Source: Escherchia phage Stokescottia. Taken from it: a stretch of DNA of 64,000 nucleotides. The stretch's first letter is position 1, and every line of letters begins with the position of its first letter. Under the pieces are notes generated by a model. The model ran no database searches, was not told the origin of the DNA, and saw only the letters and a list, made by a program, of their open reading frames with translations. The stretch lies in sequence record OR896820.1. The stretch is one strand, 5' to 3'. A program made the position numbers and the translations under genes. This document shows positions 1-32,711 of this stretch, in pieces.

Positions 1-630
1 TTAGCAAAAAGATAGTCTTCTGCTTTAACTTCTCGCCAATTGCCTGTGGCTAAATCGCGATGAAATCCTGCATGACCTTGTAGGATTGAGAACACAACAA
101 TACTCCTGTGTTGGAAATGAAATAAGTTTTCTTTAGGACTATTCAGAAAGAATAGAACAACTGTTACTGTCAATTTCTCAACAAATTAATTGCAAATACT
201 GAAGTGGGGTGGCAACTTCCACTTTCACGCTGCGCTGCTGCTTTGCTATACCGCACAAATCCTTGAGGATGGCCGCTAAGCCAGATTTGCTCACCTAATG
301 CTTCATATACTAGCTCATACTAGATGCAATATAACTTACAGAATCACGTCTCGGAGTTTTTCACTCCTCCCGTCTCACTTCACAACCACCTCTATCTAGG
401 TTGCTTCGAGGCCTTACCAGGGTTCCTACGGGACGCAGATCGCTAAGTATTCTATTAACTATTTGTTTAAAAACCAACACGTAACAGTTAAAACAACCCT
501 TAATGGGGCAGCCTAACTGTTCCGTATCGCGGATTGTAAACAAGAAAAATTAGCAAAATCAATTTTTACTAATGTCTCTCATTTATGGGAATATTATACT
601 ATAAAATAATACTCCCTTGCAAATGAAATT

Positions 631-1146
631 TTACTGAATTGATTCCCTACCATATAATTGGCCCCTAAACATCTTGGCCATAGAACATGCAACTTCATAG
701 TTATCATATGTTCCTTTAACTACTCGTTTACGATTAATAGTAAATACTACTTGCCAGTTCTTACTACCAGAAGGGTAAACATGCATTCCTTTCTTATATT
801 TGGTATTTCTTAGATTACCAGTTACTGTCTGATCCCTAAGATTTTCAATACGATCATCGCCTTTTATAGTGTTCTCATGATCTACCAAATCAGGTAAGTA
901 TCCATGATGCATTAAGAAGATAGCTCTGTGTCGGAGCATAGTTCTACTCCCTAGAGAAATACGGTAATAACCATTCCCCGTTGAAACACAACATTCCTTG
1001 CCTGCATTTCTTCCTGTAGTTCTAAATAATTTTCCATCTTCATATCGGAAATTATCTAAAAGTTCTTGTTGTGTGAGCGACATCTTTACCTCCAATACAT
1101 ATATTATTACATAATCCATCCAATTTGTCAATGACAATTTATTCAT
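631..1146 (-). CDS. HNH homing endonuclease (HNH motif plus AP2-like C-terminal DNA-binding region)
   Basis: ORF track; motif LMHHGYLPDLVDHENT...N typical of HNH; C-terminal WQVVF..YDNYEVA resembles AP2 fold; likely true start at 1083 (MSLTQQ). Confidence 0.65.
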   Translation of the reverse strand: MNKLSLTNWMDYVIIYVLEVKMSLTQQELLDNFRYEDGKLFRTTGRNAGKECCVSTGNGYYRISLGSRTMLRHRAIFLMHHGYLPDLVDHENTIKGDDRIENLRDQTVTGNLRNTKYKKGMHVYPSGSKNWQVVFTINRKRVVKGTYDNYEVACSMAKMFRGQLYGRESIQ

Positions 1147-1225
1147 ACTGTCAATTAACTGGAAAGATTAGGTAATAATCCGAGCACTAATAGCCCGGAT
1201 TATAGAGTTCAGCTAATAAAAATCA

Positions 1226-1615
1226 TTAGTCACTTAACCCCGGAACATAGATCCCAACACGGTTTAATTGTTCTTTAGCTTCTTTGAGTATATCTGGAGT
1301 GTACTCCCAAATATCATCTTCCACCTGTAAAAGATGGGGCGAACAACCGTCATCAGGCACACGACATATGGCCAAACCACGTGGATGGAACAAAGAGAAA
1401 TTTAGGGCAACAATTAAACCCATAGCAGACAATTCATTCCAATCCAATTCCCATTCCCCGGCGTATCCAGACAGGAAAATGCCAATGCATGGATCATCTA
1501 TTTGCTGCTCCGGAAAAGTGAAGGAGGCTTGTCTTACCCCCAACCAACGTTGTAGCAGCTTCTCCGCACGTTTCACCAAACTAGGGTCAATCTGACGCCA
1601 ATATACTTGTTCCAT
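1226..1615 (-). CDS. hypothetical protein (paralog of 1625..2053)
   Basis: ORF track; shares ELD.NEL..MGL.ALN..LF.P and C-terminal G.Y.PGL with neighbouring ORF. Confidence 0.5.
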   Translation of the reverse strand: MEQVYWRQIDPSLVKRAEKLLQRWLGVRQASFTFPEQQIDDPCIGIFLSGYAGEWELDWNELSAMGLIVALNFSLFHPRGLAICRVPDDGCSPHLLQVEDDIWEYTPDILKEAKEQLNRVGIYVPGLSD

Positions 1616-1624
1616 CCTGCCTCC

Positions 1625-2053
1625 TTAAGCAGTTAAACCTGGGATCATATACCCGAAACGTCGAAGTTTCTGAATCCCATCATTTACTTCTTCCGGTGAG
1701 TAAGACCAACCATAACGTTCATTAACCTGAAAACCAGGAGATTCACTAGTTTTATAGTTAACAACGAGGCGATGCTTAGCAGGCATAAACAGCTTATAGT
1801 TTAACGCAAAAACTAAGCCCATTTCATCTAACTCTTTCCAGCCGACAATCTCTTCAAGACCCTCCTCTACCTGAACAATTAAACCAATACAGGGGGCCTC
1901 ATCAATATCATCTTTAAAAGCAAAGGAGATTTCGTTATTCTCACACCATATTTTCAAAGAGTTAATAGCCTTATTATACAGGCTAGCTGGGAGAGTACGC
2001 CAAAAGTTAACCAAAATTGGGTTAGCTTCTTTAGAGAATACATTATTAAACAT
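1625..2053 (-). CDS. hypothetical protein (paralog of 1226..1615)
   Basis: ORF track; tandem paralog, same conserved blocks. Confidence 0.5.
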   Translation of the reverse strand: MFNNVFSKEANPILVNFWRTLPASLYNKAINSLKIWCENNEISFAFKDDIDEAPCIGLIVQVEEGLEEIVGWKELDEMGLVFALNYKLFMPAKHRLVVNYKTSESPGFQVNERYGWSYSPEEVNDGIQKLRRFGYMIPGLTA

Positions 2054-2055
2054 AT

Positions 2056-2568
2056 TTACACCTTAAATTGTTGTAGGGCTTTACACATTTCAAGATCTGG
2101 ACTAAATTCTAACATATAGCTAACAGCTTTTAAATCTTGAAGATTTATTCCAGTCCTACCGTTGACTATAACCGTTGGATACTGATACATCATAGCACCC
2201 GCATCGTCAAGCACACACCAATGTTTGAGCCTATGCTTTTCAACGAAGCGAAGAACAGAATTACCCCTAGATAATCCACCCCCGGTAAAATCCGTTGTAC
2301 CAAGAAAACGATCGATAAGGCCTAATCCGGTCATAATCTGAACATTCTCCATCTCATTTCTGACAGAGAACCAAGATGATACTCCAACAATCATTATCGG
2401 GGAAGGACGAATAAAGTCCTGAAAAGCCTTGAGAAGCGGTTTGAAAACCCAGTCACTCCCAAAGAAAATCTTTTCATCATCAGGTGCATGATGGTGGGAG
2501 ATGCTCGAATTGAGCACCCCATCAATGTCTAGAAAAATAATTGGAGTATTACTTATTTCCTGATACAT
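2056..2568 (-). CDS. HAD-superfamily hydrolase/phosphatase-like protein
   Basis: N-terminal FLDIDGVL matches HAD motif I (DxDG[VT]); start overlaps upstream ORF stop. Confidence 0.55.
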   Translation of the reverse strand: MYQEISNTPIIFLDIDGVLNSSISHHHAPDDEKIFFGSDWVFKPLLKAFQDFIRPSPIMIVGVSSWFSVRNEMENVQIMTGLGLIDRFLGTTDFTGGGLSRGNSVLRFVEKHRLKHWCVLDDAGAMMYQYPTVIVNGRTGINLQDLKAVSYMLEFSPDLEMCKALQQFKV

Positions 2569-3364
2569 AAGGTCTATCCCCTAAATGAGCTTCTACACGA
2601 GCAATAAAATCAGGATCACTGAAAGCATCTACCGCACCTTTACTCCAGTAAGGGATACCGCGTTCTTCCAGCTGGTACATCTCACTACGAGTCATACCTT
2701 GATAGCCCGGTTCCACCGCTAGGGCACTATCATAGTAGTTAACAACCATTAGCTTGGCAGCAGTCAAATTAAGAACAGGAAATAATTCCCAGTAGAAATT
2801 AATTACTTGGTTAGAGCAACCAACCACAATGATCATATCTTGACTGGTAATACCATCAAAAATATTGTACATCTCCGCATATGCTGGAGCATGCTCTCCA
2901 AAGAAGATTACATTAGGTTTAACCCATTTATAATCATCTGGATCAATAGAATTGTATCCTACATCAATAATCCGTTTATTGCTACTATTGTAGCTATCAG
3001 CTACAACAACCTCTTTTAAATATCCGTGAATGTGCAGAATGTCACTATGTGAAACGCCAGCACGCTCAATAAGGTCATCAACGTTGGTAGTCAAGTTTAC
3101 TACTTGACCTGGATATTGTTTATACCATTCACCAATACGCAAATGCGCAAGATTGGGTTCAACAGTTTTTAGCTCTTCACGACGCTTGTTGTAAAACATA
3201 TGGGTTTTATGATAAAAATTACCACGAAAGGCATGAATATTACATACTTCTTCTAGATCATAATCATCCCACAGTGCTTTACCACTAGCAGTATCAGTAC
3301 GAAAAGCTCGTACACCACTTTCAACACTCAAACCTGCACCGCTAATAATAATTAATCTACGCAT
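2549..3364 (-). CDS. Sir2-family (sirtuin-like) NAD-dependent protein
   Basis: Motifs ISGAGLSVESGVRAFR, TTNVDDL, HIHG, VVGCS in the canonical Sir2 order. Confidence 0.7.
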   Translation of the reverse strand: MRRLIIISGAGLSVESGVRAFRTDTASGKALWDDYDLEEVCNIHAFRGNFYHKTHMFYNKRREELKTVEPNLAHLRIGEWYKQYPGQVVNLTTNVDDLIERAGVSHSDILHIHGYLKEVVVADSYNSSNKRIIDVGYNSIDPDDYKWVKPNVIFFGEHAPAYAEMYNIFDGITSQDMIIVVGCSNQVINFYWELFPVLNLTAAKLMVVNYYDSALAVEPGYQGMTRSEMYQLEERGIPYWSKGAVDAFSDPDFIARVEAHLGDRPYVSGNK

Positions 3365-3578
3365 TTTTCACCTGTTCTCTGAAGTTTTGCCCAATACTGT
3401 CTAATAGCTCAGCTAATTCTTTATTGCCTTTCTCCATTAAGGTATTAGCAATAACTTCTAGCATAGTAGCGCAGGATTCAACACCATCCTTATAGCCAGT
3501 TTCCCAGTGCTGCATTAATGCGTTTTCCAAAGCGGCGTTTAAACCCTTATCTGGTAGCATCGGCTTCGAGAATGCCAT
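3357..3578 (-). CDS. hypothetical protein
   Basis: ORF track; overlapping start/stop tiling with neighbours. Confidence 0.45.
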   Translation of the reverse strand: MAFSKPMLPDKGLNAALENALMQHWETGYKDGVESCATMLEVIANTLMEKGNKELAELLDSIGQNFREQVKNA

Positions 3579-3750
3579 AAAGTTTCTCCTCTAGTTCCAT
3601 AACACGATTTTCATAAGAGGCACGCAACTTTTCAATTGCCAGCGCACGCACTGTAACCTCATTAGAATTAATAGCTAATTGGGCCAGGTCTTCTGTTTCC
3701 ATACGTCCGTTGTAAATTAAGCGATATTTAAGATGTTTTACGTTTTTCAT
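3547..3750 (-). CDS. hypothetical protein
   Basis: ORF track; tiling with neighbours. Confidence 0.45.
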   Translation of the reverse strand: MKNVKHLKYRLIYNGRMETEDLAQLAINSNEVTVRALAIEKLRASYENRVMELEEKLYGILEADATR

Positions 3751-3959
3751 TCTTGTTCCTCAAACATTTCAATTTCTGCATTAGCAATAGAAAGGGCGGG
3801 CTCAGATAAGCACAATCCCATCCTAGGATCGATCTTCCCTTCGCCAATCCAAGTACTTACTAAACATAATTTAGTTATATCCTCACGGAGAATCGAACCA
3901 TATGCCCCAGAATCCATAATAAAATAGATACGTTCTTTATCTACCTTGTGAACTCTCAT
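3747..3959 (-). CDS. hypothetical protein
   Basis: ORF track; tiling with neighbours. Confidence 0.45.
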   Translation of the reverse strand: MRVHKVDKERIYFIMDSGAYGSILREDITKLCLVSTWIGEGKIDPRMGLCLSEPALSIANAEIEMFEEQE

Positions 3960-4058
3960 AGCTTTCTCCTCTCAAATTTATAAATCAATTATACATAAAT
4001 TTTTGGCTGAAAGCAAATAAAATAAAAGCCAGGTCGACTAGCAACCCGGCTGATTAGC

Positions 4059-5933
4059 TTACTTAGCTCGAATATCCTGATGCTTCACTCTGCCCATCAC
4101 CTCGTGCTGTTTGCCAGGGTTAAATGGACGAGCACCTGGATTTCCAAGATACCCACAAACTCGACGAGTTACTTCAAGAGTTTCGGGGTCATGATTACCA
4201 CAGATAGGGCACTTAAATCCATCTTCGGATGCTATTGTTTCACCTAAGAATCCACATTTACCACAAGAATCCACTGGAGTATTAATACCAAAGTAATGAA
4301 CCTTACTAGCCGCATAATTAATAACCCATTCCAGTGCATCTGGGAATCGTTTCATATCCGGTAGTTCTACATAGGAAATGCACCCACCAGAAGCAATCGG
4401 AGTAAAGTTAGACTCATAATCAAATTTCACGTTAGGAGCAACTTTACGTTCCACATCAAGGTGGTGAGAGTTAGTGTAGTATCCTTTGGACAGAATATCT
4501 TCATGCTCCGGGAAATATTCACGGTCTAGACGACAAAAACGGTCACATAGGGATTCTGATGGTGTAGCATACAGGCTATAGCCTAACTTAGTTTCTTCCT
4601 TCTTCTGATCGACTCTATCCCGCATGTACTGCAATACACGCTGAACAAACTTGATGCAGGTCTCGGACATTGTGTCCACATCTTTGCCAAACATGAACTG
4701 TAGCATTTCATGGCAACCAATATACCCTAGAGATACAGAAGCACGGTTATAGAAATGATCGAATACATATTCATCAGGCTCCAAGCGTAACCCAAAGGCT
4801 CCTGACATATAGAGGATGGGTGCAGCTTTAGCTTGGATGTATTTTAAGCGATCAACTCTCCACTCCAATGCTTTTAACGCTGTATCCACACGTAGCTCAA
4901 GCAAATCAAAGAATAGATCAATATTTCCTTCAGCTTCGATAGCAATTCTAGGCAAGTTTACAGAAACAACACCTAAGTTATTACGACCGGCAGTTTCACC
5001 GTCTTCTGTAGCAGCTAGGAATGAACGGCAGCCCATAGAAACTTTATAGTCTCCAGTAACTTCCACAACCTTATCATAGCTGATATAATCTGGATACATA
5101 CGTTCAGACGTACATTTCATAGCTAACTTCTTGATGTCATAATTAACATCTCCTGGTTTCATGTTAACACCATCACGAAGTACAAATACCAGTTTCGGGA
5201 AGATAGCTGTACGTTTATTGATACCTAAACCATCCATGCGTACTTTCAGTATTGCTTTCTGTACTAGACGTGCTTCCCAAGAAGTTCCTAGACCAAAACC
5301 AAAGGCAATAAAGGGACTCTGACCATTAGAGTTAAACATGGTATTGATTTCATATTCTAAACCCTGACAAGCGTCATAGACTTCTTTTTCAGTCATCTCC
5401 GTAGCCATTACGGATGCTTTGGCTTCATCCTTAGTCCAACGTTTTGCAAACGCATGATTTTTGTCATAGGATTTACGAACATAAGGAGCTAATACTTCAT
5501 CAAGGCGATCTACAGAGGTACCACCATACTGATGGGAGCTAACTTGAGTGATAATCTGAGCAGTAATAGCCGCCGCAGTAGTGATAGAGTTTGGAGTGCT
5601 AATTTCAGCATTACCAACCTTCATACCATTCTTCAACATATCTTCCAGGGCTACCAGACAACAGTTAGTCATGCCTAATGCAGCATAATCAGCATCATGG
5701 AAATGAATATCCCCAATCATATGAGCATTTCGAATCTGAATTGGCATTTCTTCTAGAATTAGATACTTACTCAATTCACCTGCAAGCATATCCCTTTGTG
5801 TAGGGAAACGTTCTGAGGGTTTATTGGCATTATTAAATAACAGTTCTTCATCTGCTGACCCTTCGATAATCTCTTTGCAGTTTCTAATTAATGCCTGCAT
5901 TTCTTTATATTTTAGTTCTTCATTACGATTCAT
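4059..5933 (-). CDS. nrdD: anaerobic ribonucleoside-triphosphate reductase (class III RNR)
   Basis: 624 aa; C-terminal glycyl-radical motif RVCGYLG and Cys-rich zinc ribbon CGKCGF...CPICG. Confidence 0.9.
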   Translation of the reverse strand: MNRNEELKYKEMQALIRNCKEIIEGSADEELLFNNANKPSERFPTQRDMLAGELSKYLILEEMPIQIRNAHMIGDIHFHDADYAALGMTNCCLVALEDMLKNGMKVGNAEISTPNSITTAAAITAQIITQVSSHQYGGTSVDRLDEVLAPYVRKSYDKNHAFAKRWTKDEAKASVMATEMTEKEVYDACQGLEYEINTMFNSNGQSPFIAFGFGLGTSWEARLVQKAILKVRMDGLGINKRTAIFPKLVFVLRDGVNMKPGDVNYDIKKLAMKCTSERMYPDYISYDKVVEVTGDYKVSMGCRSFLAATEDGETAGRNNLGVVSVNLPRIAIEAEGNIDLFFDLLELRVDTALKALEWRVDRLKYIQAKAAPILYMSGAFGLRLEPDEYVFDHFYNRASVSLGYIGCHEMLQFMFGKDVDTMSETCIKFVQRVLQYMRDRVDQKKEETKLGYSLYATPSESLCDRFCRLDREYFPEHEDILSKGYYTNSHHLDVERKVAPNVKFDYESNFTPIASGGCISYVELPDMKRFPDALEWVINYAASKVHYFGINTPVDSCGKCGFLGETIASEDGFKCPICGNHDPETLEVTRRVCGYLGNPGARPFNPGKQHEVMGRVKHQDIRAK

Positions 5934-6183
5934 TATACCCTCCTTCTCTAACTAAGACTACTATTATAACTCATTCGAGGGCGGATGTCAACAATATTTT
6001 ACTATAAAGTTCTGTAACATGATCTGAGTCAAAAAATTTTATTTGCCAACCTCTATTAAAAATTGTATAATCACGCACTCGTGTATGCGATATAAAATGA
6101 TTATCTAGTATCACACATCTCCCGTTAAAAGCAAGCAAATTTTTTATTTAAATGCAATATCATAGGCTTATTTAAAATTGTAG

Positions 6184-6212
6184 TTGCTTTTTACTGTATA
6201 TATTGGTATAAT
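6184..6212 (+). promoter_or_regulatory. sigma70-type early promoter (TTGCTT-N17-TATAAT)
   Basis: -35 6184-6189, -10 6207-6212; member of repeated promoter family. Confidence 0.6.
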
Positions 6213-6285
6213 ATATTTGTAAGTTGATAAACAAGATCTTTTTGTTGATCCTCTGTTAGCGAAGTACACTATAGGAGTGTTATTT

Positions 6286-7038
6286 ATGGGAAAAGCACGT
6301 CAAAAAAGAGAGAACCGCAATGGTTCAAGAAAGCGTGGCAACAAATATGAGAACAACGTAATTCAGGCTGATTTTTCTAATGATTACGCTAATCCAGTTG
6401 CTAAATCCCTAGTAGGTAAAAACCGCGAGCAAAAATCATATATCAATATGATCAAGAACAACACAGTGACTGTGGGTATCGGTGAGCCAGGTACTGGTAA
6501 AACCTTTATTCCGTCCGTTCTTGCAGCTCAGGAACTCGTAGACATTCACTCAGATATTGAGCAGGTGATTCTCGTACGTCCTAATGAACCTCTAGGTAAG
6601 TCTCTTGGTATGCTTCCTGGTGATCTAGCAGAAAAGCTAGAGCCTTGGTTAGAGCCAATAGCTGATGGTATGAAATGGGCCATCGGTGATCATGCCTATA
6701 AGGGATATGTCGAACGTCAGAAAATTAAATTTTTGGCTATCGAACATGCTCGTGGCAGAACTTTCAACAACTCCTATGTAATTGTCGATGAAGCTCAGAA
6801 TATTTCCGTTGAGGCAATGATTTGTCTCCTAACTCGTGTAGGACAAGACTGCCGTTTAATTATCTGCGGAGATATAGCTCAGAAAGACATTAAAGGTGAC
6901 TCAGGTCTAGCACTCCTTATGGAAGTCTATGAGAAATACGAAAATGCCCCATTCTCAATGATCGAATTGATTGATAACGTTCGTTCTGTTGAGTCTAAAG
7001 CATTCTATGATATTTTTAAAGACATGGGGAAGGTGTAA
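6286..7038 (+). CDS. phoH: PhoH-like ATPase
   Basis: Walker A GEPGTGKTF and PhoH-like layout; RBS taggag upstream of ATG at 6286. Confidence 0.85.
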   Translation: MGKARQKRENRNGSRKRGNKYENNVIQADFSNDYANPVAKSLVGKNREQKSYINMIKNNTVTVGIGEPGTGKTFIPSVLAAQELVDIHSDIEQVILVRPNEPLGKSLGMLPGDLAEKLEPWLEPIADGMKWAIGDHAYKGYVERQKIKFLAIEHARGRTFNNSYVIVDEAQNISVEAMICLLTRVGQDCRLIICGDIAQKDIKGDSGLALLMEVYEKYENAPFSMIELIDNVRSVESKAFYDIFKDMGKV

Positions 7039-7039
7039 T

Positions 7040-7282
7040 ATGGGAAACGTCGTTCATCTGAGCCGTAAAACTAAAATACATCGTACTTCACTGAGTGCTG
7101 CTAATATGATTACACGTAAGGAAGGGGAAGAAAGTCCTAAGACAGCCCTAGCGTGGAAAATTGTAACCTCAAATCCAAATAAACCATTCAATTATAACGA
7201 GCTGAGCACCTCCATAGATATTCTATTAAAAGAAGTTGCTAGAGCTAAAGTAATTGAACAAGCTAAAAAGCTAGACTGGTAA
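7040..7282 (+). CDS. hypothetical protein
   Basis: ATG overlaps phoH stop; internal start of ORF 6971..7282. Confidence 0.45.
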   Translation: MGNVVHLSRKTKIHRTSLSAANMITRKEGEESPKTALAWKIVTSNPNKPFNYNELSTSIDILLKEVARAKVIEQAKKLDW

Positions 7283-7402
7283 TATACAGGCCTGGGTATG
7301 AAAATACTCGGGCCTTTTCTATCAGAAAATTTTATTTGCCTAATGACCGATAATAAAGTAGAATATTCCTTAAATCCTGATAACTATAAAAAGGAAAGCC
7401 AA

Positions 7403-9733
7403 ATGAGCCATCGCATTGAAAAAGTAATTAAACGTGACGGTACTGTAGAAGACTTTGCTCCTGAAAAACTCAATGGTTGGGCGGAGTATGGTTGCAAAAC
7501 AGTTGATGTAAGTTGGTCAGCCATTACTATGGCTGCTCAAAAAACTCTGCCTAAAGGGGTTGTAGATTCCGACACTCTGATGGATGCATTAATTAAAGCT
7601 GCTGAAAGTCTTATTAAAGATAATCCAGCATATGATGTGCCAGCAAAGGAGTTACGTCTTGCGCAAATGCGTAAACGCCTTTATGATTCTTTCGAACCAC
7701 CTTCTCTACGCTTCTTCCATGACCATATGGTTAGCGTAGGTGCATGGGAAGACATGAGTGCATGGATTACCGATGAACAATTTGAAGCTCTGAATCAGGT
7801 TATCGACCATGATCGTGATCGTCTTTTTACTAGTGGTGGGCTGAAGCAGTTCTTTGATAAATATTCCCGTCGTAACATAGCCACTGGTGAAATTTATGAA
7901 ACTCCGCAGTTTGCCTACATGGGTATGGCAATGGCGATGCTATCTCAACCTAACTGGACAATTCTAGATGCAATCGACCTCTACAACGCAATGTCACTCC
8001 ACAAAATCAACGTTCCTACGCCGCCATTGGTTGGTCTGCGCTCTAGTGACCGTGGATTTGCTAGTTGCTGCCTCGTGGATTCCACTGACACGTTGGATTC
8101 AATTGACACCGCCGAGCACATCGTCTTCAAAATGGTCGCAGCCAGAGCGGGAATCGGGTATCATCTTGAAAGCCGATCAATTGCTGATCCGGTGCGAAAT
8201 GGGGCATTCCCGCATTCCGGAAAACTGCCATATTATCGACACATTGACCGCTCAGTAAAGGCCAATACTCAGCAAACTCGTGGTGGTTCTGCCACAGTGT
8301 CTTATCCATACTTCGACCCTGAAATCATTCAATTGATGCAGGTTAAGCAACAACGTGCTACAGATGAGAATAAAATCGATAAGATGGATTATTCCCTGAG
8401 CTTTAACAATCTTTTGTTAAAACGTTATCTTAAAAACGAAGATATTACGCTAATGTCATACTTCTATGCTCCAGAAGTTCATGAAGCGTTTTATAGTGAT
8501 GACGAGGCTAAATTTGAAGAAATCTACGTGGCAGCGGAGAAACGTGTGGCATCTCTTACAAAAATCGACCATGAAGGAAAAACAGTTCCTGCAGCTCCTA
8601 AAGTCTCCGCAAAAGAAATCCTAGATACTTGGCTACGTATTCGAATGGAAACAGGACGTATGTACGCTCATCACATCGGGGAATCTAACCGTCACGGTAA
8701 CTTCCTTGATCCGATCCGTATGACAAACCTTTGTGTTGAAATTACTCAGCCTACACGCCCGTTCCATCATATCACGGAACTGTATAAAACAAAAGAACAA
8801 CTCGATCAAATGAAGCCGGAGGATATTGGTGAAGTATCTCTGTGTAACTTAGGTGGTGTTGTACTTGGACGCATGGAATCTCTGGCCGAGTGGGAAAAAA
8901 CCTGCTACATCCTCCTGAAATTCGTTGATACAATTATTGAAATTCAGGATTATCCGTTCCCAACTATGGAATATACTGCTAAGAAACGTCGTAATGTTGG
9001 TATTGGCCTGATGAACGCAGCAGGTGCAATGGCAGCAGAAGGTCTGGCTTATGAAGGTATTGAAGCCCGTAACTGGATTCACCGTGAGGCTGAAAAACTG
9101 TCTTACTTCCTGCATAAAGCCTCTGTACGCCTAGCTAAAGAACAGGGTGCATGTGAGTGGTTTGATCGTACTAAACCATCTAAAGGAATTCTGGTAATCG
9201 ACACGTACAAGAAAACTGTTGATGAACTGGTATCCGTAGGTCTAGAAATGGATTGGGAGTCTCTGCGTGCAGATATTCTGAAATATGGTATGCGTAACTC
9301 TGTTCTGACTGCTCAGATGCCGGGAGAAAGTTCTTCTGTTCTGTTAGGTGTTACTAACTCTATTGAACCGCCTCGTAAGATTGTATCTATCAAAGGTAGT
9401 GCAGTAAATAAAGTAATTGCAATTGCTCCAGGTGCAACCGATTGGGAAACGTTAATGAGCTATAAACTGGCTTATGATGTAGATCGTATCGAGTGGATCA
9501 AGTGGGTAGCAACTATGCAGAAATTCTTCAGTCAGTCTATCAGTACGAATATGTACTATGACTACACCAAGTTTGAGAATGAAATCATTCCTGGCCCAGT
9601 AGTAGTTCGTGATTTCATGACTGCTGTTAAGTATGGGTGGAAAACTTGGTATTATGCTAACTTCAATACCGCAAATGGTGGAGGTGCTGGAGAAGAAGCA
9701 GCCGGTTGTGCATCCGGTGGTTGTACTATTTAA
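7403..9733 (+). CDS. nrdA: ribonucleoside-diphosphate reductase large subunit (class Ia)
   Basis: N-terminal ATP-cone (VIKRDG), catalytic core, C-terminal Cys pair (CASGGC); start at 7403 after RBS aaggaaag. Confidence 0.9.
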   Translation: MSHRIEKVIKRDGTVEDFAPEKLNGWAEYGCKTVDVSWSAITMAAQKTLPKGVVDSDTLMDALIKAAESLIKDNPAYDVPAKELRLAQMRKRLYDSFEPPSLRFFHDHMVSVGAWEDMSAWITDEQFEALNQVIDHDRDRLFTSGGLKQFFDKYSRRNIATGEIYETPQFAYMGMAMAMLSQPNWTILDAIDLYNAMSLHKINVPTPPLVGLRSSDRGFASCCLVDSTDTLDSIDTAEHIVFKMVAARAGIGYHLESRSIADPVRNGAFPHSGKLPYYRHIDRSVKANTQQTRGGSATVSYPYFDPEIIQLMQVKQQRATDENKIDKMDYSLSFNNLLLKRYLKNEDITLMSYFYAPEVHEAFYSDDEAKFEEIYVAAEKRVASLTKIDHEGKTVPAAPKVSAKEILDTWLRIRMETGRMYAHHIGESNRHGNFLDPIRMTNLCVEITQPTRPFHHITELYKTKEQLDQMKPEDIGEVSLCNLGGVVLGRMESLAEWEKTCYILLKFVDTIIEIQDYPFPTMEYTAKKRRNVGIGLMNAAGAMAAEGLAYEGIEARNWIHREAEKLSYFLHKASVRLAKEQGACEWFDRTKPSKGILVIDTYKKTVDELVSVGLEMDWESLRADILKYGMRNSVLTAQMPGESSSVLLGVTNSIEPPRKIVSIKGSAVNKVIAIAPGATDWETLMSYKLAYDVDRIEWIKWVATMQKFFSQSISTNMYYDYTKFENEIIPGPVVVRDFMTAVKYGWKTWYYANFNTANGGGAGEEAAGCASGGCTI

Positions 9734-23538: not shown

Positions 23539-23627
23539 GGAAGAATAGCATAACGGTATTGCAGCAGATTGCTAATCTGTCGGTTTGAAATATAGCCTTG
23601 TGGGTTCGATTCCCACTTCTTCCGCCA
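23539..23627 (+). tRNA. tRNA-Ser (anticodon GCT), long variable arm
   Basis: Acceptor GGAAGAA/TTCTTCC, loop TTGCTAA, long variable arm, discriminator G, CCA. Confidence 0.75.
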
Positions 23628-23632
23628 AATTT

Positions 23633-23710
23633 GGTTCTCAAGCTCATATGGTATGAGCACCCGGCTCATAACCGGAAGGTACGTAGGTTCGAATCCTCGG
23701 GGAGCCACCA
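23633..23710 (+). tRNA. tRNA with CAT anticodon (Met or Ile-lysidine type)
   Basis: Acceptor GGTTCTC/GGGAGCC, loop CTCATAA; T-stem only 3 clean pairs; discriminator A, CCA. Confidence 0.55.
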
Positions 23711-23728
23711 ATTAAATAGAGGTCACAA

Positions 23729-23917
23729 ATGGATCTATATATAGTTTATGTTGTGTTTATTCAAGATAGAGAATACCCGGATGAATATAAAAAAGGATAT
23801 AGGTTAGCCAGAGCTACATCTGAAGCCCAAGCTATGGATAAAGTGGCGGATTATATGATTACGGTAGAAAACGTACACTATATCGACTACCTTGAAGCCT
23901 CAAAAGTAATTGACTAA
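23729..23917 (+). CDS. hypothetical protein
   Basis: ORF track. Confidence 0.45.
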   Translation: MDLYIVYVVFIQDREYPDEYKKGYRLARATSEAQAMDKVADYMITVENVHYIDYLEASKVID

Positions 23918-23926
23918 GGAGACTAT

Positions 23927-24112
23927 ATGTCTAAGTTTCAAGAACTCAAGCAAGAGCTAGAAGAATGTGCCTGCCCTGAGTGTAGGGGAATTGGTGAAAG
24001 TTCTGATGCAGAAGCAGGAGATACTTTTTGCAATATCTGGGTTTGCCCAAATTGCAAGGGTACAGGTATTAATCCTAACTGCGGTATTTCCCTAGATATT
24101 GAACGAGGATAA
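23927..24112 (+). CDS. Cys-rich small protein (possible zinc ribbon)
   Basis: CPEC...CPNC pattern. Confidence 0.45.
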   Translation: MSKFQELKQELEECACPECRGIGESSDAEAGDTFCNIWVCPNCKGTGINPNCGISLDIERG

Positions 24113-24213
24113 TACCTGTGAAACTAAAAGATTATTATATTGGTTGGTTTGTAGGACTAGTAGTAGGATTTTCACTAGGCTATAATATGTATCAACTAAT
24201 AAACTGATTACAC

Positions 24214-24290
24214 GGGGGTGTAATCGAATTGGCATAGGTACTGGACTTAAAATTCAGGTTTTGTGGGTTCGAATCCCACCACCACTACCA
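24214..24290 (+). tRNA. tRNA-Leu (anticodon TAA), type-I-like scaffold
   Basis: Acceptor GGGGGTG/CACCACT (one mismatch), 3-bp D-stem with 11-nt loop GAATTGGCATA, loop CTTAAAA, discriminator A, CCA; paralog of 28714..28790 with covarying pair 12:24. Confidence 0.6.
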
Positions 24291-24465
24291 AATTAAGGAA
24301 ATAAGATGTATAGACATCCACCTCCGCCAACACGTCGTTCTAGAGAAGTTATTCTCATGGAATTGACTAAAAACTTCAAGGCAACCCTTGAAGATAGAGA
24401 TCTAGGCACGGATGAAGACATTGATTTTATTTGTAGACTATTAAAGATGAAACTGGAGAAACAAC

Positions 24466-24672
24466 ATGGCTAATCCTGAAATTACCGCACAACGTTTCAT
24501 GCTTAAAGGTATGATTGCTGAGGCGGGTATAACTCAAGAGGTTGCAGATTTTCATAAGCAATTTCTTGATATTATAACTCTAGCTAAAGAGACTGGAGAA
24601 AAAGAGCACGGAGCAGCAATTATGGCTATATCTCTTATTAGTCTAGACTTGGCTGAAGAATCTGGAGTTTAG
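24466..24672 (+). CDS. hypothetical protein
   Basis: ORF track. Confidence 0.45.
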   Translation: MANPEITAQRFMLKGMIAEAGITQEVADFHKQFLDIITLAKETGEKEHGAAIMAISLISLDLAEESGV

Positions 24673-24702
24673 CTCCTCCAAACAGAATTTTTAAAAATGT
24701 AC

Positions 24703-24732
24703 TTGCCTTTTGCTTTAAATTTCTGGTATAAT
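24703..24732 (+). promoter_or_regulatory. sigma70-type early promoter
   Basis: TTGCCT 24703-24708, TATAAT 24727-24732. Confidence 0.5.
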
Positions 24733-24762
24733 AATTATATAAATTGATGAAGGAGTTAACTA

Positions 24763-25038
24763 ATGCAAAATCGTGTTATAGCTGCTGGTATTGAAAGTGC
24801 AATCTGTAAATCCTGGGAAGGCTGGGAAGGTGAGATTGAATGGCTTTATTTCTACGATGTAGAACTTCTGCCGGAAATTAAAGCTAAATGTATTGAAGCT
24901 GGCATGGCTCCAGATGCAAAAGCTGATATTGATATTTCAATGTCTGAACTTAAAGGTCGTGTAATCACTGTTAGTGATGAGGGCGAAGAAGTTTTTGAAC
25001 TTCCGTTCTCCTTAACTGTCACTCCTAAGTTCGACTAA
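24763..25038 (+). CDS. hypothetical protein
   Basis: ORF track. Confidence 0.5.
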   Translation: MQNRVIAAGIESAICKSWEGWEGEIEWLYFYDVELLPEIKAKCIEAGMAPDAKADIDISMSELKGRVITVSDEGEEVFELPFSLTVTPKFD

Positions 25039-25074
25039 CTAATACAGCATTGGGCAAGTTCTTTAAAATTTGAC

Positions 25075-25103
25075 TTGCCCAATACTATAAAACTTGATAT
25101 AAT
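25075..25103 (+). promoter_or_regulatory. sigma70-type promoter upstream of tRNA block
   Basis: TTGCCC 25075-25080, TATAAT 25098-25103. Confidence 0.5.
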
Positions 25104-25169
25104 ATTTATCTAATTTGGAAACATATTTAAAAGTGTTTAAATGAGAATTTTTTGAATACTTCTAAATAT

Positions 25170-25257
25170 GGGGAAATATTCTGTAAGTGGTAGCAGAGCT
25201 GACTGTAAATCAGTTGTCATTGCGACTCGGGTGGTTCGACTCCATCTTTCCCCACCA
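25170..25257 (+). tRNA. tRNA-Tyr (anticodon GTA), long variable arm
   Basis: Acceptor GGGGAAA/TTTCCCC, loop CTGTAAA, discriminator A, CCA. Confidence 0.75.
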
Positions 25258-25264
25258 ATTTAAT

Positions 25265-25339
25265 GCACCTATCGTCTAGCGGTTAGGACACCACTCTTTC
25301 ACAGTGGGAACACGAGTTCGATCCTCGTTGGGTGTGCCA
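25265..25339 (+). tRNA. tRNA-Glu (anticodon TTC)
   Basis: Acceptor GCACCTA/TGGGTGT, loop CTTTCAC, discriminator G, CCA. Confidence 0.75.
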
Positions 25340-25348
25340 ATTAATAAT

Positions 25349-25419
25349 TGGGGTACGCATAGGTTGCAAATGGGCCTCCAAAACCCATGAAAAGGTTTCG
25401 AATACCTTTACCCCTGCCA
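25349..25419 (+). tRNA. tRNA-Trp-like (anticodon CCA), compact D-arm
   Basis: 71 nt; T-arm AAGGT-TTCGAAT-ACCTT, CCA-containing anticodon loop (7 or 9 nt depending on register), 1:72 mismatch, discriminator G, CCA. Confidence 0.45.
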
Positions 25420-25425
25420 AAATTT

Positions 25426-25500
25426 GCACCTTTAGCTGAGATGGATTAGCGCTTGCCTGAAGAGCTTGAGAGGTTCGTTCGATACGAACAGGGTGCACCA
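25426..25500 (+). tRNA. tRNA-Phe-like (anticodon GAA)
   Basis: Acceptor GCACCTT/AGGGTGC, loop CTGAAGA, two U-U mismatches in anticodon stem, discriminator A, CCA. Confidence 0.5.
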
Positions 25501-25782
25501 AATTGAAGGAGCTGCTGATGCATCCTGAAAACTTCTTTATTTACTGCGCGGATAAGTCGCTGAAACGTAGAATTAACAAAGTCTATCATTATCGTGCTAG
25601 TCAACAGCCTTATGTATATGCTTTTGACGGTGATCACATTCCCCTAGAACAATTATCTTGTGATTACATGATATTGAAGAACTTTGACGAGACGAAGATC
25701 TCAAGCGTTCATAATCGACAGAATCCATTAACGTGGAAATATAAGAAGAAAAAGAAAGGCATCAAATTCTTAAAAAATGTAG

Positions 25783-25811
25783 TTGCTTAGTTTCCAAAAG
25801 TTCTGTATAAT
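25783..25811 (+). promoter_or_regulatory. sigma70-type early promoter
   Basis: TTGCTT 25783-25788, TATAAT 25806-25811. Confidence 0.6.
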
Positions 25812-25840
25812 AATTACATAAATTGAACTGGAGAAGCAAC

Positions 25841-26065
25841 ATGACAGAACAAGAATTGAATGAACGTAAGCTGGTAATGCTTCGCTTACTAAATATTTTC
25901 TCTGGTATGGACGGTGGAATTGACTTTGTTCTTCTACGTTCTTTCGTAGAAGAAGCCGAAGGCGAATCTATCACTAAAATCCTTAAACACATGGGATTAC
26001 TTTTAGATGCTGCTAATGTGGCTACTGAATATAAACTAGAAGATCTACCGGAGCGTGTTAAATGA
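25841..26065 (+). CDS. hypothetical protein
   Basis: ATG at 25841 after promoter; ORF track 25823..26065. Confidence 0.5.
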   Translation: MTEQELNERKLVMLRLLNIFSGMDGGIDFVLLRSFVEEAEGESITKILKHMGLLLDAANVATEYKLEDLPERVK

Positions 26066-26253
26066 AACGATTAGTTAGATTTAAGTGTTGTGGTTCTGAA
26101 CATACTTTCACACATCTTCGTGAATTTAAAATGTGTGATTGTGGTAAATCAGGCTATGACTCAGGAGATGGGTTCTACACCCGTACTCTAGGGAACTTCA
26201 ATGATCTAGAATTTGAAGATCTCGAAAAACAAGATAAATCGACCGTTGGCTGA
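26062..26253 (+). CDS. Cys-rich small protein
   Basis: CCGSEH...CDCG; 3' end overlaps tRNA-Cys by 14 nt. Confidence 0.45.
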   Translation: MKRLVRFKCCGSEHTFTHLREFKMCDCGKSGYDSGDGFYTRTLGNFNDLEFEDLEKQDKSTVG

Positions 26254-26315
26254 ATGGCTTAGGCGAAGGATTGCAAATCCTTTTTATGTGAGTTCAAATC
26301 TCATGCGGTCGTCCA
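26240..26315 (+). tRNA. tRNA-Cys (anticodon GCA)
   Basis: Acceptor CGACCGT/GCGGTCG, loop TTGCAAA, discriminator T, CCA. Confidence 0.75.
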
Positions 26316-26467
26316 ATTTGCTGAAAGAATTGTTAAATCAATTCAGGCACGCGTAGGAACACTGTCTCCGTAATTGAAAGATGGGGCACGGTTTGGAGAG
26401 GTATGCCGCTACACGCTACGGTGCTAACTCCGTCTAGGTGAAAATCCTAGTCAGCAATGTAAATTTA

Positions 26468-26550
26468 GGGTCGTTAGCCAAGCGGTTTGGCGGCGGATTG
26501 TTAATCCGTGTCGAAAGACAACGTAGGTTCGAATCCTACACGGCCCGCCA
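26468..26550 (+). tRNA. tRNA-Asn (anticodon GTT) with 13-nt variable arm
   Basis: Acceptor GGGTCGT/ACGGCCC, D-stem GCCA/TGGC, loop TTGTTAA, variable stem-loop GTC-GAAA-GAC, discriminator G, CCA. Confidence 0.6.
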
Positions 26551-26652
26551 AATTCTGTGTAGAGTTAAGTAAACCGGTAGCCAATCAGCTATCATTGCTG
26601 ACATCGAATTCAGCCACAGATACCATTTTCATTAATAACTGAGGAAACAAGC

Positions 26653-26838
26653 ATGTCCAAGAATGTAATTGCACAGTTAGAAGTTCATCGTGATAGCACT
26701 ATCAACAATATTGAAGTTGAGAAGAAATACATCGAAGAACTTAAACATGATATACTAGTAAGTCTTAATCGTCTTAATGTACGAAAAGAGTTTCTTAAAG
26801 AACTTAATGCAGCTATTGAAAAACTCAAAGCTGAGTAA
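26653..26838 (+). CDS. hypothetical protein
   Basis: ORF track; coiled-coil-like. Confidence 0.45.
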   Translation: MSKNVIAQLEVHRDSTINNIEVEKKYIEELKHDILVSLNRLNVRKEFLKELNAAIEKLKAE

Positions 26839-26847
26839 ATGAATTAT

Positions 26848-26924
26848 GCGACCGGGGCTGGCTTGGTAATGGTACTCCCCTGTCACGGGAGGGAATGTGG
26901 GTTCAAATCCCATCGGTCGCGCCA
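26848..26924 (+). tRNA. tRNA-Asp (anticodon GTC)
   Basis: Acceptor GCGACCG/CGGTCGC, loop CTGTCAC, discriminator G, CCA. Confidence 0.75.
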
Positions 26925-27982: not shown

Positions 27983-27988
27983 ACGGAG

Positions 27989-32342: not shown

Positions 32343-32711
32343 ATGAAAGCATATCAAAATCTTAAATCTGGCGTAATTAACCTTGTTCATGAAAATCAGA
32401 TTATTCAGCTATACTCCGACAACGGTGAACTTAAACAGAAAGTTCTAGTTGAAGATCTAGAAGGTATCACACCACAATTCGATCCTGAAGCCTTCCGTGA
32501 AGTTAAGGTGGAAGTCGCACCTCAAATCGAAGGTGGTCAGCACCTAAATGTCAATGTGTTAAGTCGTGATCAGCTTTTGGATGCACAGAAACACCCTGAA
32601 AAATACCCTCAATTAACTATCCGTGTATCTGGCTACGCTGTTCGATTTAACGCGCTGACTCGTGAACAACAGAACGACGTTATTAGTCGTACATTTACTC
32701 AGGCGATGTAA
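32343..32711 (+). CDS. grcA: autonomous glycyl radical cofactor (YfiD/GrcA-like)
   Basis: C-terminal [11 protein letters not shown]...[33 protein letters not shown] closely matches the GrcA glycyl-radical domain. Confidence 0.85.

What the first reader, a model, noticed from the sequence alone, without database searches (positions are those of the whole stretch)
4059..5933. Class III RNR (NrdD) without an adjacent activase, with a GrcA homolog 26 kb away
nrdD is present with its glycyl-radical motif, but no NrdG-like radical-SAM activase (CxxxCxxC) is evident among the neighbouring small ORFs. A separate autonomous glycyl-radical cofactor (GrcA, 32343-32711) is encoded in the tRNA region. The phage may rely on host NrdG/PflA and carry a spare glycyl-radical domain to repair oxygen-damaged enzymes.
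Basis: partly seen in the sequence, partly recalled or inferred. Interest (0 to 1): 0.4.

Follow-up and report, generated by a model that had tools for sequence, protein, structure and literature searches.

The report
T5-like phage NrdD without activase
This T5-like phage has an intact anaerobic ribonucleotide reductase gene but no gene for the enzyme that switches it on, plus a small "spare part" for the host's pyruvate formate-lyase. Both features are real, but they are shared by the whole phage family and already annotated and published, so the finding is ordinary.

Summary
The window comes from a Tequintavirus (T5-like phage, 97-98% nucleotide identity to known isolates).

- **nrdD:** ORF 4059-5933(-) is a complete class III RNR large subunit. 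Every key residue I checked against E. coli NrdD is present. It has its own consensus promoter and terminator, so it has no operon partner.
- **No activase:** No NrdG/PflA-like radical-SAM protein is encoded in the window or in the rest of a close relative's genome.
- **CxxxCxxC motif:** The only real ORF carrying it (32793-33107, next to grcA) belongs to a 70-104 aa His/Cys-motif family. It is not an activase.
- **grcA:** ORF 32343-32711(+) is a GrcA-type protein. It is 79% identical to the PflB C-terminus and 59% identical to T4 vs.6, which I equate with Y06I, the published PFL spare part. It has no similarity to the phage's own NrdD.

Database counts indicate that nrdD without nrdG is a family-wide trait of Demerecviridae. 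T4-like phages carry nrdG and grcA together, so the two traits are independent.

The best explanation is reliance on pre-existing host NrdG (for NrdD) and host PflA (for GrcA). A "nrdD only" class of phages was reported in 2013, the T4 spare part in 2001, and the grcA gene is routinely annotated. Verdict: already known, low interest.

The parts
4059..5933 (-). nrdD, class III (anaerobic) ribonucleoside-triphosphate reductase large subunit, 624 aa, with no ATP-cone domain
   Evidence: Pfam NRDD 1.4e-171 and Gly_radical. NCBIfam NF006732 841.8 bits against a 657 cut-off. 54% identity to E. coli NrdD. PDB T4 NrdD 1h78 E=4e-177. dN/dS 0.017-0.022 against T5 and smaug.
4149..4163 (-). Codons for the glycyl-radical loop R591-V-C-G594-Y595 of NrdD
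   Evidence: Aligns to E. coli RVCGY, where Gly681 is the radical site. Invariant in four Demerecviridae genera and E. coli.
5963..5991 (-). Sigma-70 promoter-like site for nrdD (TTGACA-17-TATAAT, 12/12), followed by the Shine-Dalgarno sequence GAAGGAGG
   Evidence: This is a consensus match only. Promoter-like sites in the region were not enriched over shuffles.
4027..4051 (-). Intrinsic-terminator-like hairpin (10-bp stem plus T-run) starting 8 nt after the nrdD stop codon. It makes nrdD monocistronic.
   Evidence: The T5 record AY587007 annotates a rho-independent terminator at the same place.
32343..32711 (+). grcA-like autonomous glycyl-radical protein (PFL spare part), 122 aa, homolog of T4 vs.6
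   Evidence: Gly_radical 3.7e-18. C-terminal 62 aa 79% identical to E. coli PflB. 74% identical to E. coli GrcA over 74 aa. 59% identical to T4 vs.6 over the full length. Shine-Dalgarno GGGGAG upstream.
32622..32636 (+). Codons for the R94-V-S-G97-Y98 glycyl-radical motif of the GrcA homolog (PFL-type RVSGYAV)
   Evidence: Invariant with T4 vs.6 and E. coli GrcA.

Best explanation
The window belongs to a T5-like phage (Tequintavirus, Demerecviridae). It encodes two glycyl-radical proteins and no radical-SAM activase. Both depend on activases the host cell already contains.

1. **NrdD.** NrdD is a functional, formate-type class III RNR without an ATP cone. It is made from its own strong early promoter. 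Pre-existing host NrdG (with SAM and reduced flavodoxin) converts it to the Gly594 radical form. This lets the phage make dNTPs when O2 is too low for its class Ia NrdAB. Because nrdG is part of the host's anaerobic programme and T5 shuts host expression off, activation is effectively restricted to cells that were already anaerobic. This step is inferred.

2. **GrcA.** The GrcA homolog is the counterpart of T4 vs.6 and E. coli YfiD. Host PflA radicalises its Gly97. The protein then replaces the C-terminal glycyl-radical domain of host pyruvate formate-lyase that O2 has cleaved. That keeps acetyl-CoA, ATP and formate production running in micro-oxic cells. This is inferred by homology to published biochemistry.

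3. **Relationship.** The two traits are inherited independently. Their only plausible functional link is indirect: PFL makes formate, and formate is the reductant of this NrdD subtype.
For: **Identity of the phage.** 97-98% nucleotide identity to Tequintavirus isolates.

**NrdD is intact.**
- HMM scores are above the curated cut-offs.
- Cys91, Met300, Cys302, the Zn-site Cys557/560/575/578 and Gly594 align to E. coli Cys175, Met382, Cys384, Cys644/647/662/665 and Gly681. PMC4493059 confirms the role of Cys175 and of a finger-loop Met; the other E. coli residue numbers are from memory.

**NrdD is under selection.**
- dN/dS is 0.017-0.022 at dS 0.34-0.79.
- The checked residues (all of those above except Met300) are invariant in Tequintavirus, Epseptimavirus, Priunavirus and Sugarlandvirus.

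**No phage activase.**
- Nothing in the window.
- Nothing in the remaining genome of NC_048205 (coverage checked).
- The T5 nrdD neighbourhood and the rest of the NC_048205 genome outside the window have no annotated nrdG. A T5-like genome paper lists nrdD but no nrdG among the nucleotide-metabolism genes.

**The trait is family-wide.** NrdD is in 2908 phage records and NrdG in 2297. The differences by host genus are Salmonella 271, Escherichia 124 and Klebsiella 81. These match the numbers of T5-like records for those genera (275, 131, 82).

**nrdD is monocistronic**.

**Host activases exist.** E. coli K-12 carries nrdG and pflA.

**Host-like activase interface.** Over the C-terminal 80 aa (Zn domain plus Gly loop), the window NrdD is 60% identical to E. 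coli NrdD, against 47.5% for T4 NrdD. Over the last 35 aa the figures are 71% and 51%. PMC4493059 conjectures that this domain contacts NrdG.

**GrcA.**
- 79% identical to the PflB C-terminus.
- 59% identical to T4 vs.6.
- PMC8683613, citing Wagner 2001, reports that Y06I and YfiD are radicalised by PFL-AE and restore O2-cleaved PFL.
- grcA homologs occur in 1585 phage records, including T4-likes that also carry nrdG.

**Formate.** It is the reductant of the E. coli/T4 NrdD subtype.
Against: - No experiment or direct computation shows that E. coli or Salmonella NrdG can radicalise this NrdD.
- T4 keeps its own NrdG. That shows host NrdG is not self-evidently sufficient for a phage NrdD.
- T5 shuts off host expression early, so the supply of host activase is limited to what is already present.
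- The part of the genome outside the window was checked in a relative, not in this genome. That relative is 97.6% identical around nrdD but only 88-95% identical in the pre-early region.
- The GrcA homolog scores 121 bits on TIGR04365, below its 170-bit equivalog cut-off, because its N-terminal half diverges from bacterial GrcA.
- No FNR box lies near either gene, so there is no sign of anaerobic regulation on the phage side.
- Dwivedi et al. 2013 state that it is unknown whether RNRs in phages with incomplete gene suites are functional.
Confidence: 0.8

Rival explanations
1. The phage does encode its own activase, but an unrecognised one. The obvious candidate is the 104-aa ORF 32793-33107, 82 nt downstream of grcA, which contains a literal CxxxCxxC (CICSCWMC).
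For: It is the only CxxxCxxC in a real ORF in the window. It sits directly after the glycyl-radical gene grcA. It is conserved in T5-like phages.
Against: - No Pfam or NCBIfam match. It matches only phrog_4499, which has no known function. phmmer with NrdG gives E=27.
- Family members are 70-104 aa, and the conserved core is about 60 aa. NrdG is 154-156 aa and PflA is 246 aa.
- The first Cys of the literal motif (C41) is replaced by Ala in one homolog. The invariant set is H8, H9, C43, C45 and C48, which suggests (my inference) a His/Cys metal knuckle after a basic helix.
- I see no GGE/GGDP-type SAM-binding motif in the sequence.
- The AlphaFold model is helical or disordered, with no beta/alpha barrel, but its confidence is low (pLDDT 52).
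- The family is absent from T4-like phages that carry grcA. It is present in some jumbo phages, whose grcA status I did not check.
Confidence: 0.02
2. nrdD is a non-functional remnant, or has been re-purposed for a non-catalytic role. On this reading the missing activase simply reflects loss of the system.
For: The activase is absent from the whole family. Dwivedi 2013 notes that the functionality of incomplete RNR suites is unknown.
Against: - dN/dS is about 0.02 with substantial synonymous divergence.
- The radical Gly, the catalytic Cys residues and all four Zn ligands are invariant across four genera. The finger-loop Met is conserved between the window and E. coli.
- The ORF is full length in hundreds of genomes.
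- It has a consensus promoter and a strong Shine-Dalgarno sequence.
Confidence: 0.03
3. The GrcA homolog is a spare glycyl-radical domain for the phage's own NrdD (or for glycyl-radical enzymes in general) rather than for host PFL.
For: PMC8683613 speculates that spare-part proteins may exist for other glycyl-radical enzymes. Both genes are in one genome. The N-terminal half is phage-specific and shared with T4 vs.6.
Against: - There is no detectable similarity to NrdD's C-terminal domain (E=6).
- The motif is PFL-type RVSGYAV, not NrdD-type RVCGYLG.
- It is 79% identical to the PflB C-terminus.
- It lacks the Zn ribbon that precedes the Gly loop in NrdD.
- The T4 homolog was shown to complement PFL.
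Confidence: 0.04
4. The GrcA homolog acts mainly as a metabolic manipulator rather than as a repair part. For example, it could act as a sink for PflA activity, or redirect host pyruvate flux.
For: The N-terminal 50 aa differ from bacterial GrcA, and the TIGR04365 score is below its cut-off. Phages often carry altered copies of host metabolic genes (discussion in PMC3653736).
Against: The C-terminal domain that inserts into PFL is almost unchanged from the host version. The T4 homolog, with a similarly divergent N-terminus, does restore PFL activity.
Confidence: 0.08

Closest known systems
Bacteriophage T5 nrdD (AAX12030.1 in AY587007) and its orthologs across Demerecviridae
   Same: Same gene at 99% amino-acid identity. 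Same divergent arrangement, nrdA-phoH one way and nrdD-(small ORFs)-sir2 the other. Same terminator after nrdD. No nrdG.
   Different: Nothing of substance. This window is another isolate of the same lineage.
Bacteriophage T4 and E. coli class III RNR (NrdD plus NrdG)
   Same: Same NrdD subtype, i.e. the formate-type group that contains E. coli and T4 NrdD (NrdD1/NrdDc). 54% identity to E. coli NrdD. E=4e-177 to the T4 NrdD structure 1h78. It shares the radical Gly, the catalytic Cys pair, the finger-loop Met and the C-terminal Zn ribbon. Like T4 NrdD, it lacks the ATP cone.
   Different: T4 and E. coli encode NrdG close to nrdD. This phage and its family encode none. Its C-terminal domain is closer to the host's than T4's is.
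T4 vs.6 (which I equate with Y06I) and E. coli YfiD/GrcA, autonomous glycyl-radical cofactors (Wagner et al. 2001, as cited in PMC8683613)
   Same: About 120-aa protein. The C-terminal ~60 aa reproduce the PFL glycyl-radical domain (RVSGYAVRF). 59% identity to T4 vs.6 and 54% to E. coli GrcA in a global alignment.
   Different: The N-terminal ~50 aa are divergent, so the NCBIfam GrcA equivalog cut-off is not reached. Function is untested for the T5-type protein. Equating T4 vs.6 with Y06I rests on the RefSeq product name and the protein's size, not on a sequence check against the published protein.
"nrdD-only" phages described by Dwivedi et al. 2013 (PMC3653736)
   Same: The paper states that many phages contain only nrdD together with nrdAB. 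[quoted passage not shown]
   Different: The paper left functionality open. The selection analysis and database arithmetic here add support but no new kind of result.

Membership tests
Class III RNR large subunit NrdD (E. coli/T4 type) | Full-length match to curated NrdD models above their cut-offs | tested here: met
   Pfam PF13597 572.5 bits (cut-off 26.2). NCBIfam NF006732 841.8 bits (cut-off 657) and TIGR02487 586.8 bits (cut-off 326).
Class III RNR large subunit NrdD (E. coli/T4 type) | C-terminal glycyl-radical loop RVCGY with the radical glycine | tested here: met
   Gly594 aligns to E. coli Gly681. Invariant in five phage sequences and E. coli.
Class III RNR large subunit NrdD (E. coli/T4 type) | Finger-loop thiyl Cys, the reductive-half-reaction Cys and the finger-loop Met of the formate-using subtype | tested here: met
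   Cys302 and Met300 (MGCRSF) and Cys91 align to E. coli Cys384, Met382 and Cys175. PMC4493059 gives the role of Cys175 and of a finger-loop Met.
Class III RNR large subunit NrdD (E. coli/T4 type) | Cys4 Zn ribbon preceding the Gly loop | tested here: met
   Cys557, Cys560, Cys575 and Cys578 are conserved in all six aligned sequences.
Class III RNR large subunit NrdD (E. coli/T4 type) | A cognate radical-SAM activase NrdG encoded with it | tested here: not met
   No NrdG-like ORF in the window or in a relative's whole genome. This is a feature of the two-gene system, not of the NrdD protein family, so it does not affect filing the protein as NrdD.
Class III RNR large subunit NrdD (E. coli/T4 type) | Formate-dependent NTP reduction after radical installation | not testable with these tools
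   Needs anaerobic enzymology and EPR.
Autonomous glycyl-radical cofactor GrcA/YfiD/Y06I | Small protein (~120-127 aa) whose C-terminal part is a PFL-type glycyl-radical domain with RVSGYAV | tested here: met
   122 aa. Gly_radical 66.4 bits (cut-off 22.2). 49 of 62 residues identical to the PflB C-terminus.
Autonomous glycyl-radical cofactor GrcA/YfiD/Y06I | Score above the NCBIfam equivalog cut-off (TIGR04365 spare_glycyl) | tested here: not met
   121 bits against a 170-bit cut-off. Only residues 50-122 align. The N-terminal half is phage-type and shared with T4 vs.6. I therefore file it as a phage-type GrcA homolog, not as a bacterial GrcA equivalog.
Autonomous glycyl-radical cofactor GrcA/YfiD/Y06I | Homology to the experimentally characterised phage member (T4 Y06I) | tested here: met
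   59% identity over the full length to T4 vs.6, which RefSeq annotates as GrcA. Equating vs.6 with Y06I is an inference.
Autonomous glycyl-radical cofactor GrcA/YfiD/Y06I | Radicalisation by PFL-AE and rescue of O2-cleaved PFL | not testable with these tools
   Reported for YfiD and Y06I only.
Radical-SAM glycyl-radical activase (NrdG/PflA), tested for ORF 32793-33107 | CxxxCxxC cluster motif with all three Cys conserved | tested here: inconclusive
   The literal motif C41-x3-C45-x2-C48 is present. C41 is Ala in one homolog, and the invariant pattern is CxCxxC plus two His.
Radical-SAM glycyl-radical activase (NrdG/PflA), tested for ORF 32793-33107 | Match to radical-SAM, NrdG or PflA profiles | tested here: not met
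   No Pfam or NCBIfam hit at E<=0.1-1. phmmer with NrdG gives E=27.
Radical-SAM glycyl-radical activase (NrdG/PflA), tested for ORF 32793-33107 | Size and fold sufficient for a partial (beta/alpha) barrel with a SAM-binding GGE-type motif (>=150 aa) | tested here: not met
   Family members are 70-104 aa with a conserved core of about 60 aa and no GGE motif. The model has helices only, at low confidence.

The most novel reading that the evidence does not exclude
The phage-specific N-terminal half shared by T5-type and T4-type GrcA proteins is not related to bacterial GrcA. It might give the spare part a phage-specific function beyond PFL rescue. One possibility is coupling PFL-derived formate production to the phage NrdD. 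Another is docking to a second glycyl-radical enzyme. Together with the adjacent conserved His/Cys mini-protein (32793-33107), this would form a small phage module that manages host glycyl-radical chemistry when no phage activase is present.
Probability: 0.04. Interest if true: 0.5.

Novelty: already known. Interest (0 to 1): 0.12.

Why it matters
It matters little as a discovery. Lone nrdD appears to be a family-wide trait of T5-like phages. A "nrdD only" class of phages was reported in 2013, and phage GrcA-type spare parts have been biochemically characterised since 2001.

It is a tidy example of a virulent phage that keeps the catalytic, stoichiometrically needed glycyl-radical proteins and leaves the catalytic-amount activases to the host. 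The one question still open is experimental. Is host NrdG that was present before infection really sufficient, and does that restrict NrdD use to cells that were already anaerobic? This could matter for phage therapy in the gut.

Tried and rejected
1. **ORF 32793-33107 as a hidden activase.** Rejected. It has no family match, its family is 70-104 aa, the first Cys of the motif is not invariant, and it is absent from grcA-bearing T4-likes. The AlphaFold model was too poor (pLDDT 52) to justify a fold search, so none was run.

2. **The other two CxxxCxxC hits (21576 and 53346).** Rejected. Both lie antisense to long genes in stop-to-stop segments.

3. **FNR-box search (TTGATNNNNATCAA, up to 1 mismatch).** It gave 4 hits against 5 expected by chance, none near nrdD or grcA. 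There is no evidence of anaerobic regulation on the phage side.

4. **Literature searches.**
   - 'nrdD + nrdG + bacteriophage T5' returned nothing.
   - A search for cross-reactivity of NrdG between species returned nothing useful.
   - I recall JBC papers on T4 gene 55.9 (1994) and on Lactococcus NrdD/NrdG (2001) that bear on this. I could not read them, so I do not rely on them.

5. **GrcA as a spare part for NrdD.** Rejected on sequence grounds.

6. **A first attempt to map the window end onto the relative's record.** It assumed collinearity to record position 69,750 and found no match. Re-mapping showed that the window ends at about record position 66,833. The gap was then scanned.
Full report
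**What the window is.** The region 3000-8000 is 97-98% identical at the nucleotide level to many Tequintavirus and Epseptimavirus isolates, including Escherichia phage BUCT632 and vB_Eco_mar004NP2. It matches 542 phage records in all. The gene order around the finding is the T5 order: HNH endonuclease, two DUF7415 proteins, a HAD protein, Sir2 and three small ORFs, then nrdD on the minus strand. Diverging from these on the plus strand are phoH, nrdA, nrdB, frd and td. The annotated T5 genome AY587007 shows the same arrangement.

**The observation.**
- **nrdD.** ORF 4059-5933(-) encodes a 624-aa protein. It matches Pfam NRDD end to end (E=1.4e-171) and Gly_radical. It exceeds the curated NCBIfam equivalog cut-offs for NrdD (841.8 bits against 657). 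It is 54% identical to E. coli NrdD over 599 residues and matches the T4 NrdD crystal structure sequence at E=4e-177.
- **Key residues.** In the alignment with E. coli NrdD, the window protein has Cys91, Met300, Cys302, the four Zn-ribbon cysteines Cys557/560/575/578 and Gly594 in RVCGY. These align to E. coli Cys175, Met382, Cys384, Cys644/647/662/665 and Gly681. PMC4493059 confirms the role of Cys175 and of a finger-loop Met. The other E. coli numbers are from my memory of the literature.
- **No ATP cone.** Like the T4 enzyme, the protein has none: the alignment starts at E. coli residue 113.
- **grcA.** ORF 32343-32711(+) encodes a 122-aa protein with a Gly_radical domain (E=3.7e-18). It lies just past the last gene of a cluster of 20 tRNA genes at 23539-32068. 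The distance between the two genes is 26.4 kb.
- The description is therefore correct at the stated coordinates.

**Is there an activase?** I took E. coli NrdG, T4 NrdG and E. coli PflA from annotated records. I searched them against all six reading frames of the window with tblastn, phmmer --max and a two-sequence NrdG HMM. The best hits were E about 0.3-0.9, which is noise.

A six-frame regular-expression scan for CxxxCxxC in every stop-to-stop segment of at least 40 aa gave three hits. Two lie antisense to long genes. The third is discussed in the next section.

The window covers only about 61 kb of a roughly 108-kb genome, so I mapped it onto NC_048205 (mar004NP2). It corresponds to about record positions 5,752-66,833. 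I then scanned the rest of that record, positions 1-9,000 and 52,000-107,601. There was no NrdG/PflA-like segment and no CxxxCxxC motif. The annotation there consists of structural, replication and pre-early genes.

nrdD also stands alone transcriptionally.
- A perfect TTGACA-17-TATAAT promoter and a GAAGGAGG ribosome-binding site precede it.
- A 10-bp-stem terminator follows 8 nt after the stop codon.
- T5 is annotated with a terminator at the same place.

**The one ORF with the motif.** ORF 32793-33107(+) is 104 aa with a GTG start. It begins 82 nt after grcA and contains CICSCWMC.
- It has no Pfam or NCBIfam match. It belongs to phrog_4499, a family of unknown function. It is T5.055/ORF053 of T5.
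- Its homologs are 70-104 aa (one 121-aa form has an N-terminal extension). An alignment shows an invariant RRHHR...TPxxCSCxMCxxPR core. H8, H9, C43, C45 and C48 are invariant. The first Cys of the literal radical-SAM spacing (C41) is Ala in one member.
- There is no GGE-type SAM motif, and the conserved core is about 60 aa. NrdG is 154-156 aa.
- An AlphaFold model built on this alignment is low-confidence (pLDDT 52) and contains only helices.
- By tblastn the family is present in T5-like phages and some jumbo phages. It is absent from T4-like phages that carry grcA.
- I conclude that it is a small protein with a conserved His/Cys motif and an unknown role. It is not an activase.

**Is nrdD alive?** I aligned nrdD from the window, T5, Salmonella phage smaug (Epseptimavirus), Providencia phage PSTCR5 (Priunavirus) and Klebsiella phage GlastoCabaret (Sugarlandvirus).
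- Nei-Gojobori dN/dS is 0.022 against T5 (dS 0.34) and 0.017 against smaug (dS 0.79).
- At greater depth synonymous sites are saturated, but amino-acid identity stays at 63-72%.
- The catalytic Cys residues, Zn ligands and radical Gly are all invariant.
- All four genera keep the phoH/nrdD divergent arrangement and have no nrdG next to nrdD.
- The gene is therefore under strong functional constraint despite having no activase.

**How general is this?**

| Host genus | Records with NrdD | Records with NrdG | Difference | T5-like records |
|---|---|---|---|---|
| All | 2,908 | 2,297 | 611 | 542 |
| Salmonella | 397 | 126 | 271 | 275 |
| Escherichia | 1,055 | 931 | 124 | 131 |
| Klebsiella | 346 | 265 | 81 | 82 |

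NrdD was searched by tblastn at E<=1e-20 and NrdG at E<=1. The differences match the numbers of T5-like records for those genera almost exactly. None of the 60 NrdG-positive records sampled across the ranking is a T5-like phage. The lone nrdD is thus, as far as these counts show, a family-wide character of Demerecviridae.

The literature already says so. Dwivedi et al. [quoted passage not shown] They separately cite T5, SPC35 and EPS7 for the phoH gene between the two RNR classes, and they add that the functionality of incomplete suites is unknown. A T5-like genome paper lists nrdD but no nrdG among the nucleotide-metabolism genes.

**What the GrcA homolog is.**
- Its C-terminal 62 residues are 79% identical to the C-terminus of E. 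coli PflB. Its last 74 residues are 74% identical to E. coli GrcA.
- Over the full length it is 59% identical to T4 vs.6, which RefSeq names GrcA.
- PMC8683613, citing Wagner et al. 2001, reports that E. coli YfiD and T4 Y06I are radicalised by PFL-AE and restore activity to O2-cleaved PFL. These are the only two validated spare-part proteins. I equate vs.6 with Y06I from the product name and size; this is an inference.
- The window protein has no detectable similarity to its own NrdD (E=6). Its motif is the PFL-type RVSGYAV, and it lacks NrdD's Zn ribbon. It is therefore a PFL part, not an NrdD part.
- It scores below the NCBIfam GrcA equivalog cut-off (121 against 170 bits) because only residues 50-122 align. 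The N-terminal half resembles T4 vs.6 rather than bacterial GrcA.
- Homologs occur in 1,585 phage records. Many are annotated "autonomous glycyl radical cofactor" or, loosely, "pyruvate formate-lyase". They include the T4-like phages that also encode NrdG. The presence of grcA is therefore not a compensation for the absence of nrdG.

**Mechanism proposed.**
- **Shown here:** both glycyl-radical proteins are intact and conserved. No phage activase is encoded in the window or in a close relative's genome. E. coli K-12, as a representative host, encodes nrdG and pflA.
- **Inferred, NrdD:** pre-existing host NrdG radicalises NrdD. In support, the C-terminal 80 residues (Zn domain plus Gly loop) are conjectured to contact NrdG (PMC4493059). 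They are 60% identical to E. coli NrdD, against 47.5% for T4 NrdD, which brings its own activase. Over the last 35 residues the figures are 71% and 51%.
- **Inferred, GrcA:** by homology, host PflA radicalises it and it patches O2-cleaved PFL.
- **Inferred from general T5 and E. coli biology, from memory:** T5 shuts off host gene expression, and nrdDG is anaerobically induced. The phage NrdD can therefore be switched on only in cells that were already anaerobic at infection.
- **A plausible indirect link:** formate, the product of PFL, is the reductant of this NrdD subtype. Preserving PFL would thus also preserve the reductant for anaerobic dNTP synthesis. T4 carries the same pair of genes, so this idea is not specific to T5-like phages.

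**Verdict.** The situation is ordinary for this phage family and already documented. I rate it "already known", with interest 0.12. The only open point is experimental: direct proof that host NrdG activates the T5-type NrdD.

Noticed in passing
window 32793-33107 (+): A conserved 104-aa protein (T5.055/ORF053 family, phrog_4499). It has a basic RRHHR N-terminus and an invariant CxCxxC(G/M)xPR(K/R) motif with two invariant His residues. It has no Pfam or NCBIfam family. Homologs are in T5-like phages and some jumbo phages (Erwinia, Rhizobium, Ralstonia). Function is unknown. It could be a small metal-binding or nucleic-acid-binding protein.
   Followed up: partly
window 32711-32872 (+) versus 32793-33107 (+): A 53-aa ORF starts on the grcA stop codon (ATGTAATG). 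It begins [18 protein letters not shown]. This matches the N-terminal extension (MSFGYDFEELHEVVEQTP) of the 121-aa Yersinia phage phiR2-01 homolog of ORF 32793-33107 (P0075). In this window the two parts are in different reading frames. This could mean separate starts, a frameshift, or a fusion in some relatives.
   Followed up: no
window 1226-3364 (-): Downstream of nrdD lie a Sir2-family protein (2549-3364), a HAD domain of the 'Swiss Army Knife RNA repair' type (2056-2568) and two paralogous DUF7415 proteins (1625-2053 and 1226-1615). The Sir2 gene also follows nrdD in T5, smaug and Sugarlandvirus. The role of these genes in the phage is unclear.
   Followed up: no
window 631-1146 (-): An HNH_3 endonuclease ORF (171 aa, E=3e-9). 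In mar004NP2 the roughly equivalent stretch, between the origin-binding protein gene and the first of the small genes that follow it (record 6247-6867), has no annotated gene. It is probably a free-standing homing endonuclease that varies among isolates.
   Followed up: no
window ~60600-64000: The end of the window runs from the pre-early region (dmp, A1-type genes) straight into the receptor-binding protein and small terminase genes, as in the permuted record NC_048205. The source sequence therefore appears to be an assembly with collapsed terminal repeats, not the natural linear T5 map. Identity to mar004NP2 falls to 88-95% here, against 97.6% around nrdD.
   Followed up: partly
window 5963-6071: Back-to-back near-perfect sigma-70 consensus sites in the nrdD/phoH intergenic region: 12/12 on the minus strand (5991-5963) and 11/12 on the plus strand (6043-6071). 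The 55-aa TTG ORF at 5971-6138(-) overlaps the minus-strand site, has no family match, and is probably not a gene.
   Followed up: partly
window 23539-32068 (+): A cluster of 20 tRNA genes, including two tRNA-Gln, two tRNA-Met (CAT anticodon), two tRNA-Leu and two tRNA-Ser, interspersed with small ORFs. This is typical of T5-like phages.
   Followed up: no
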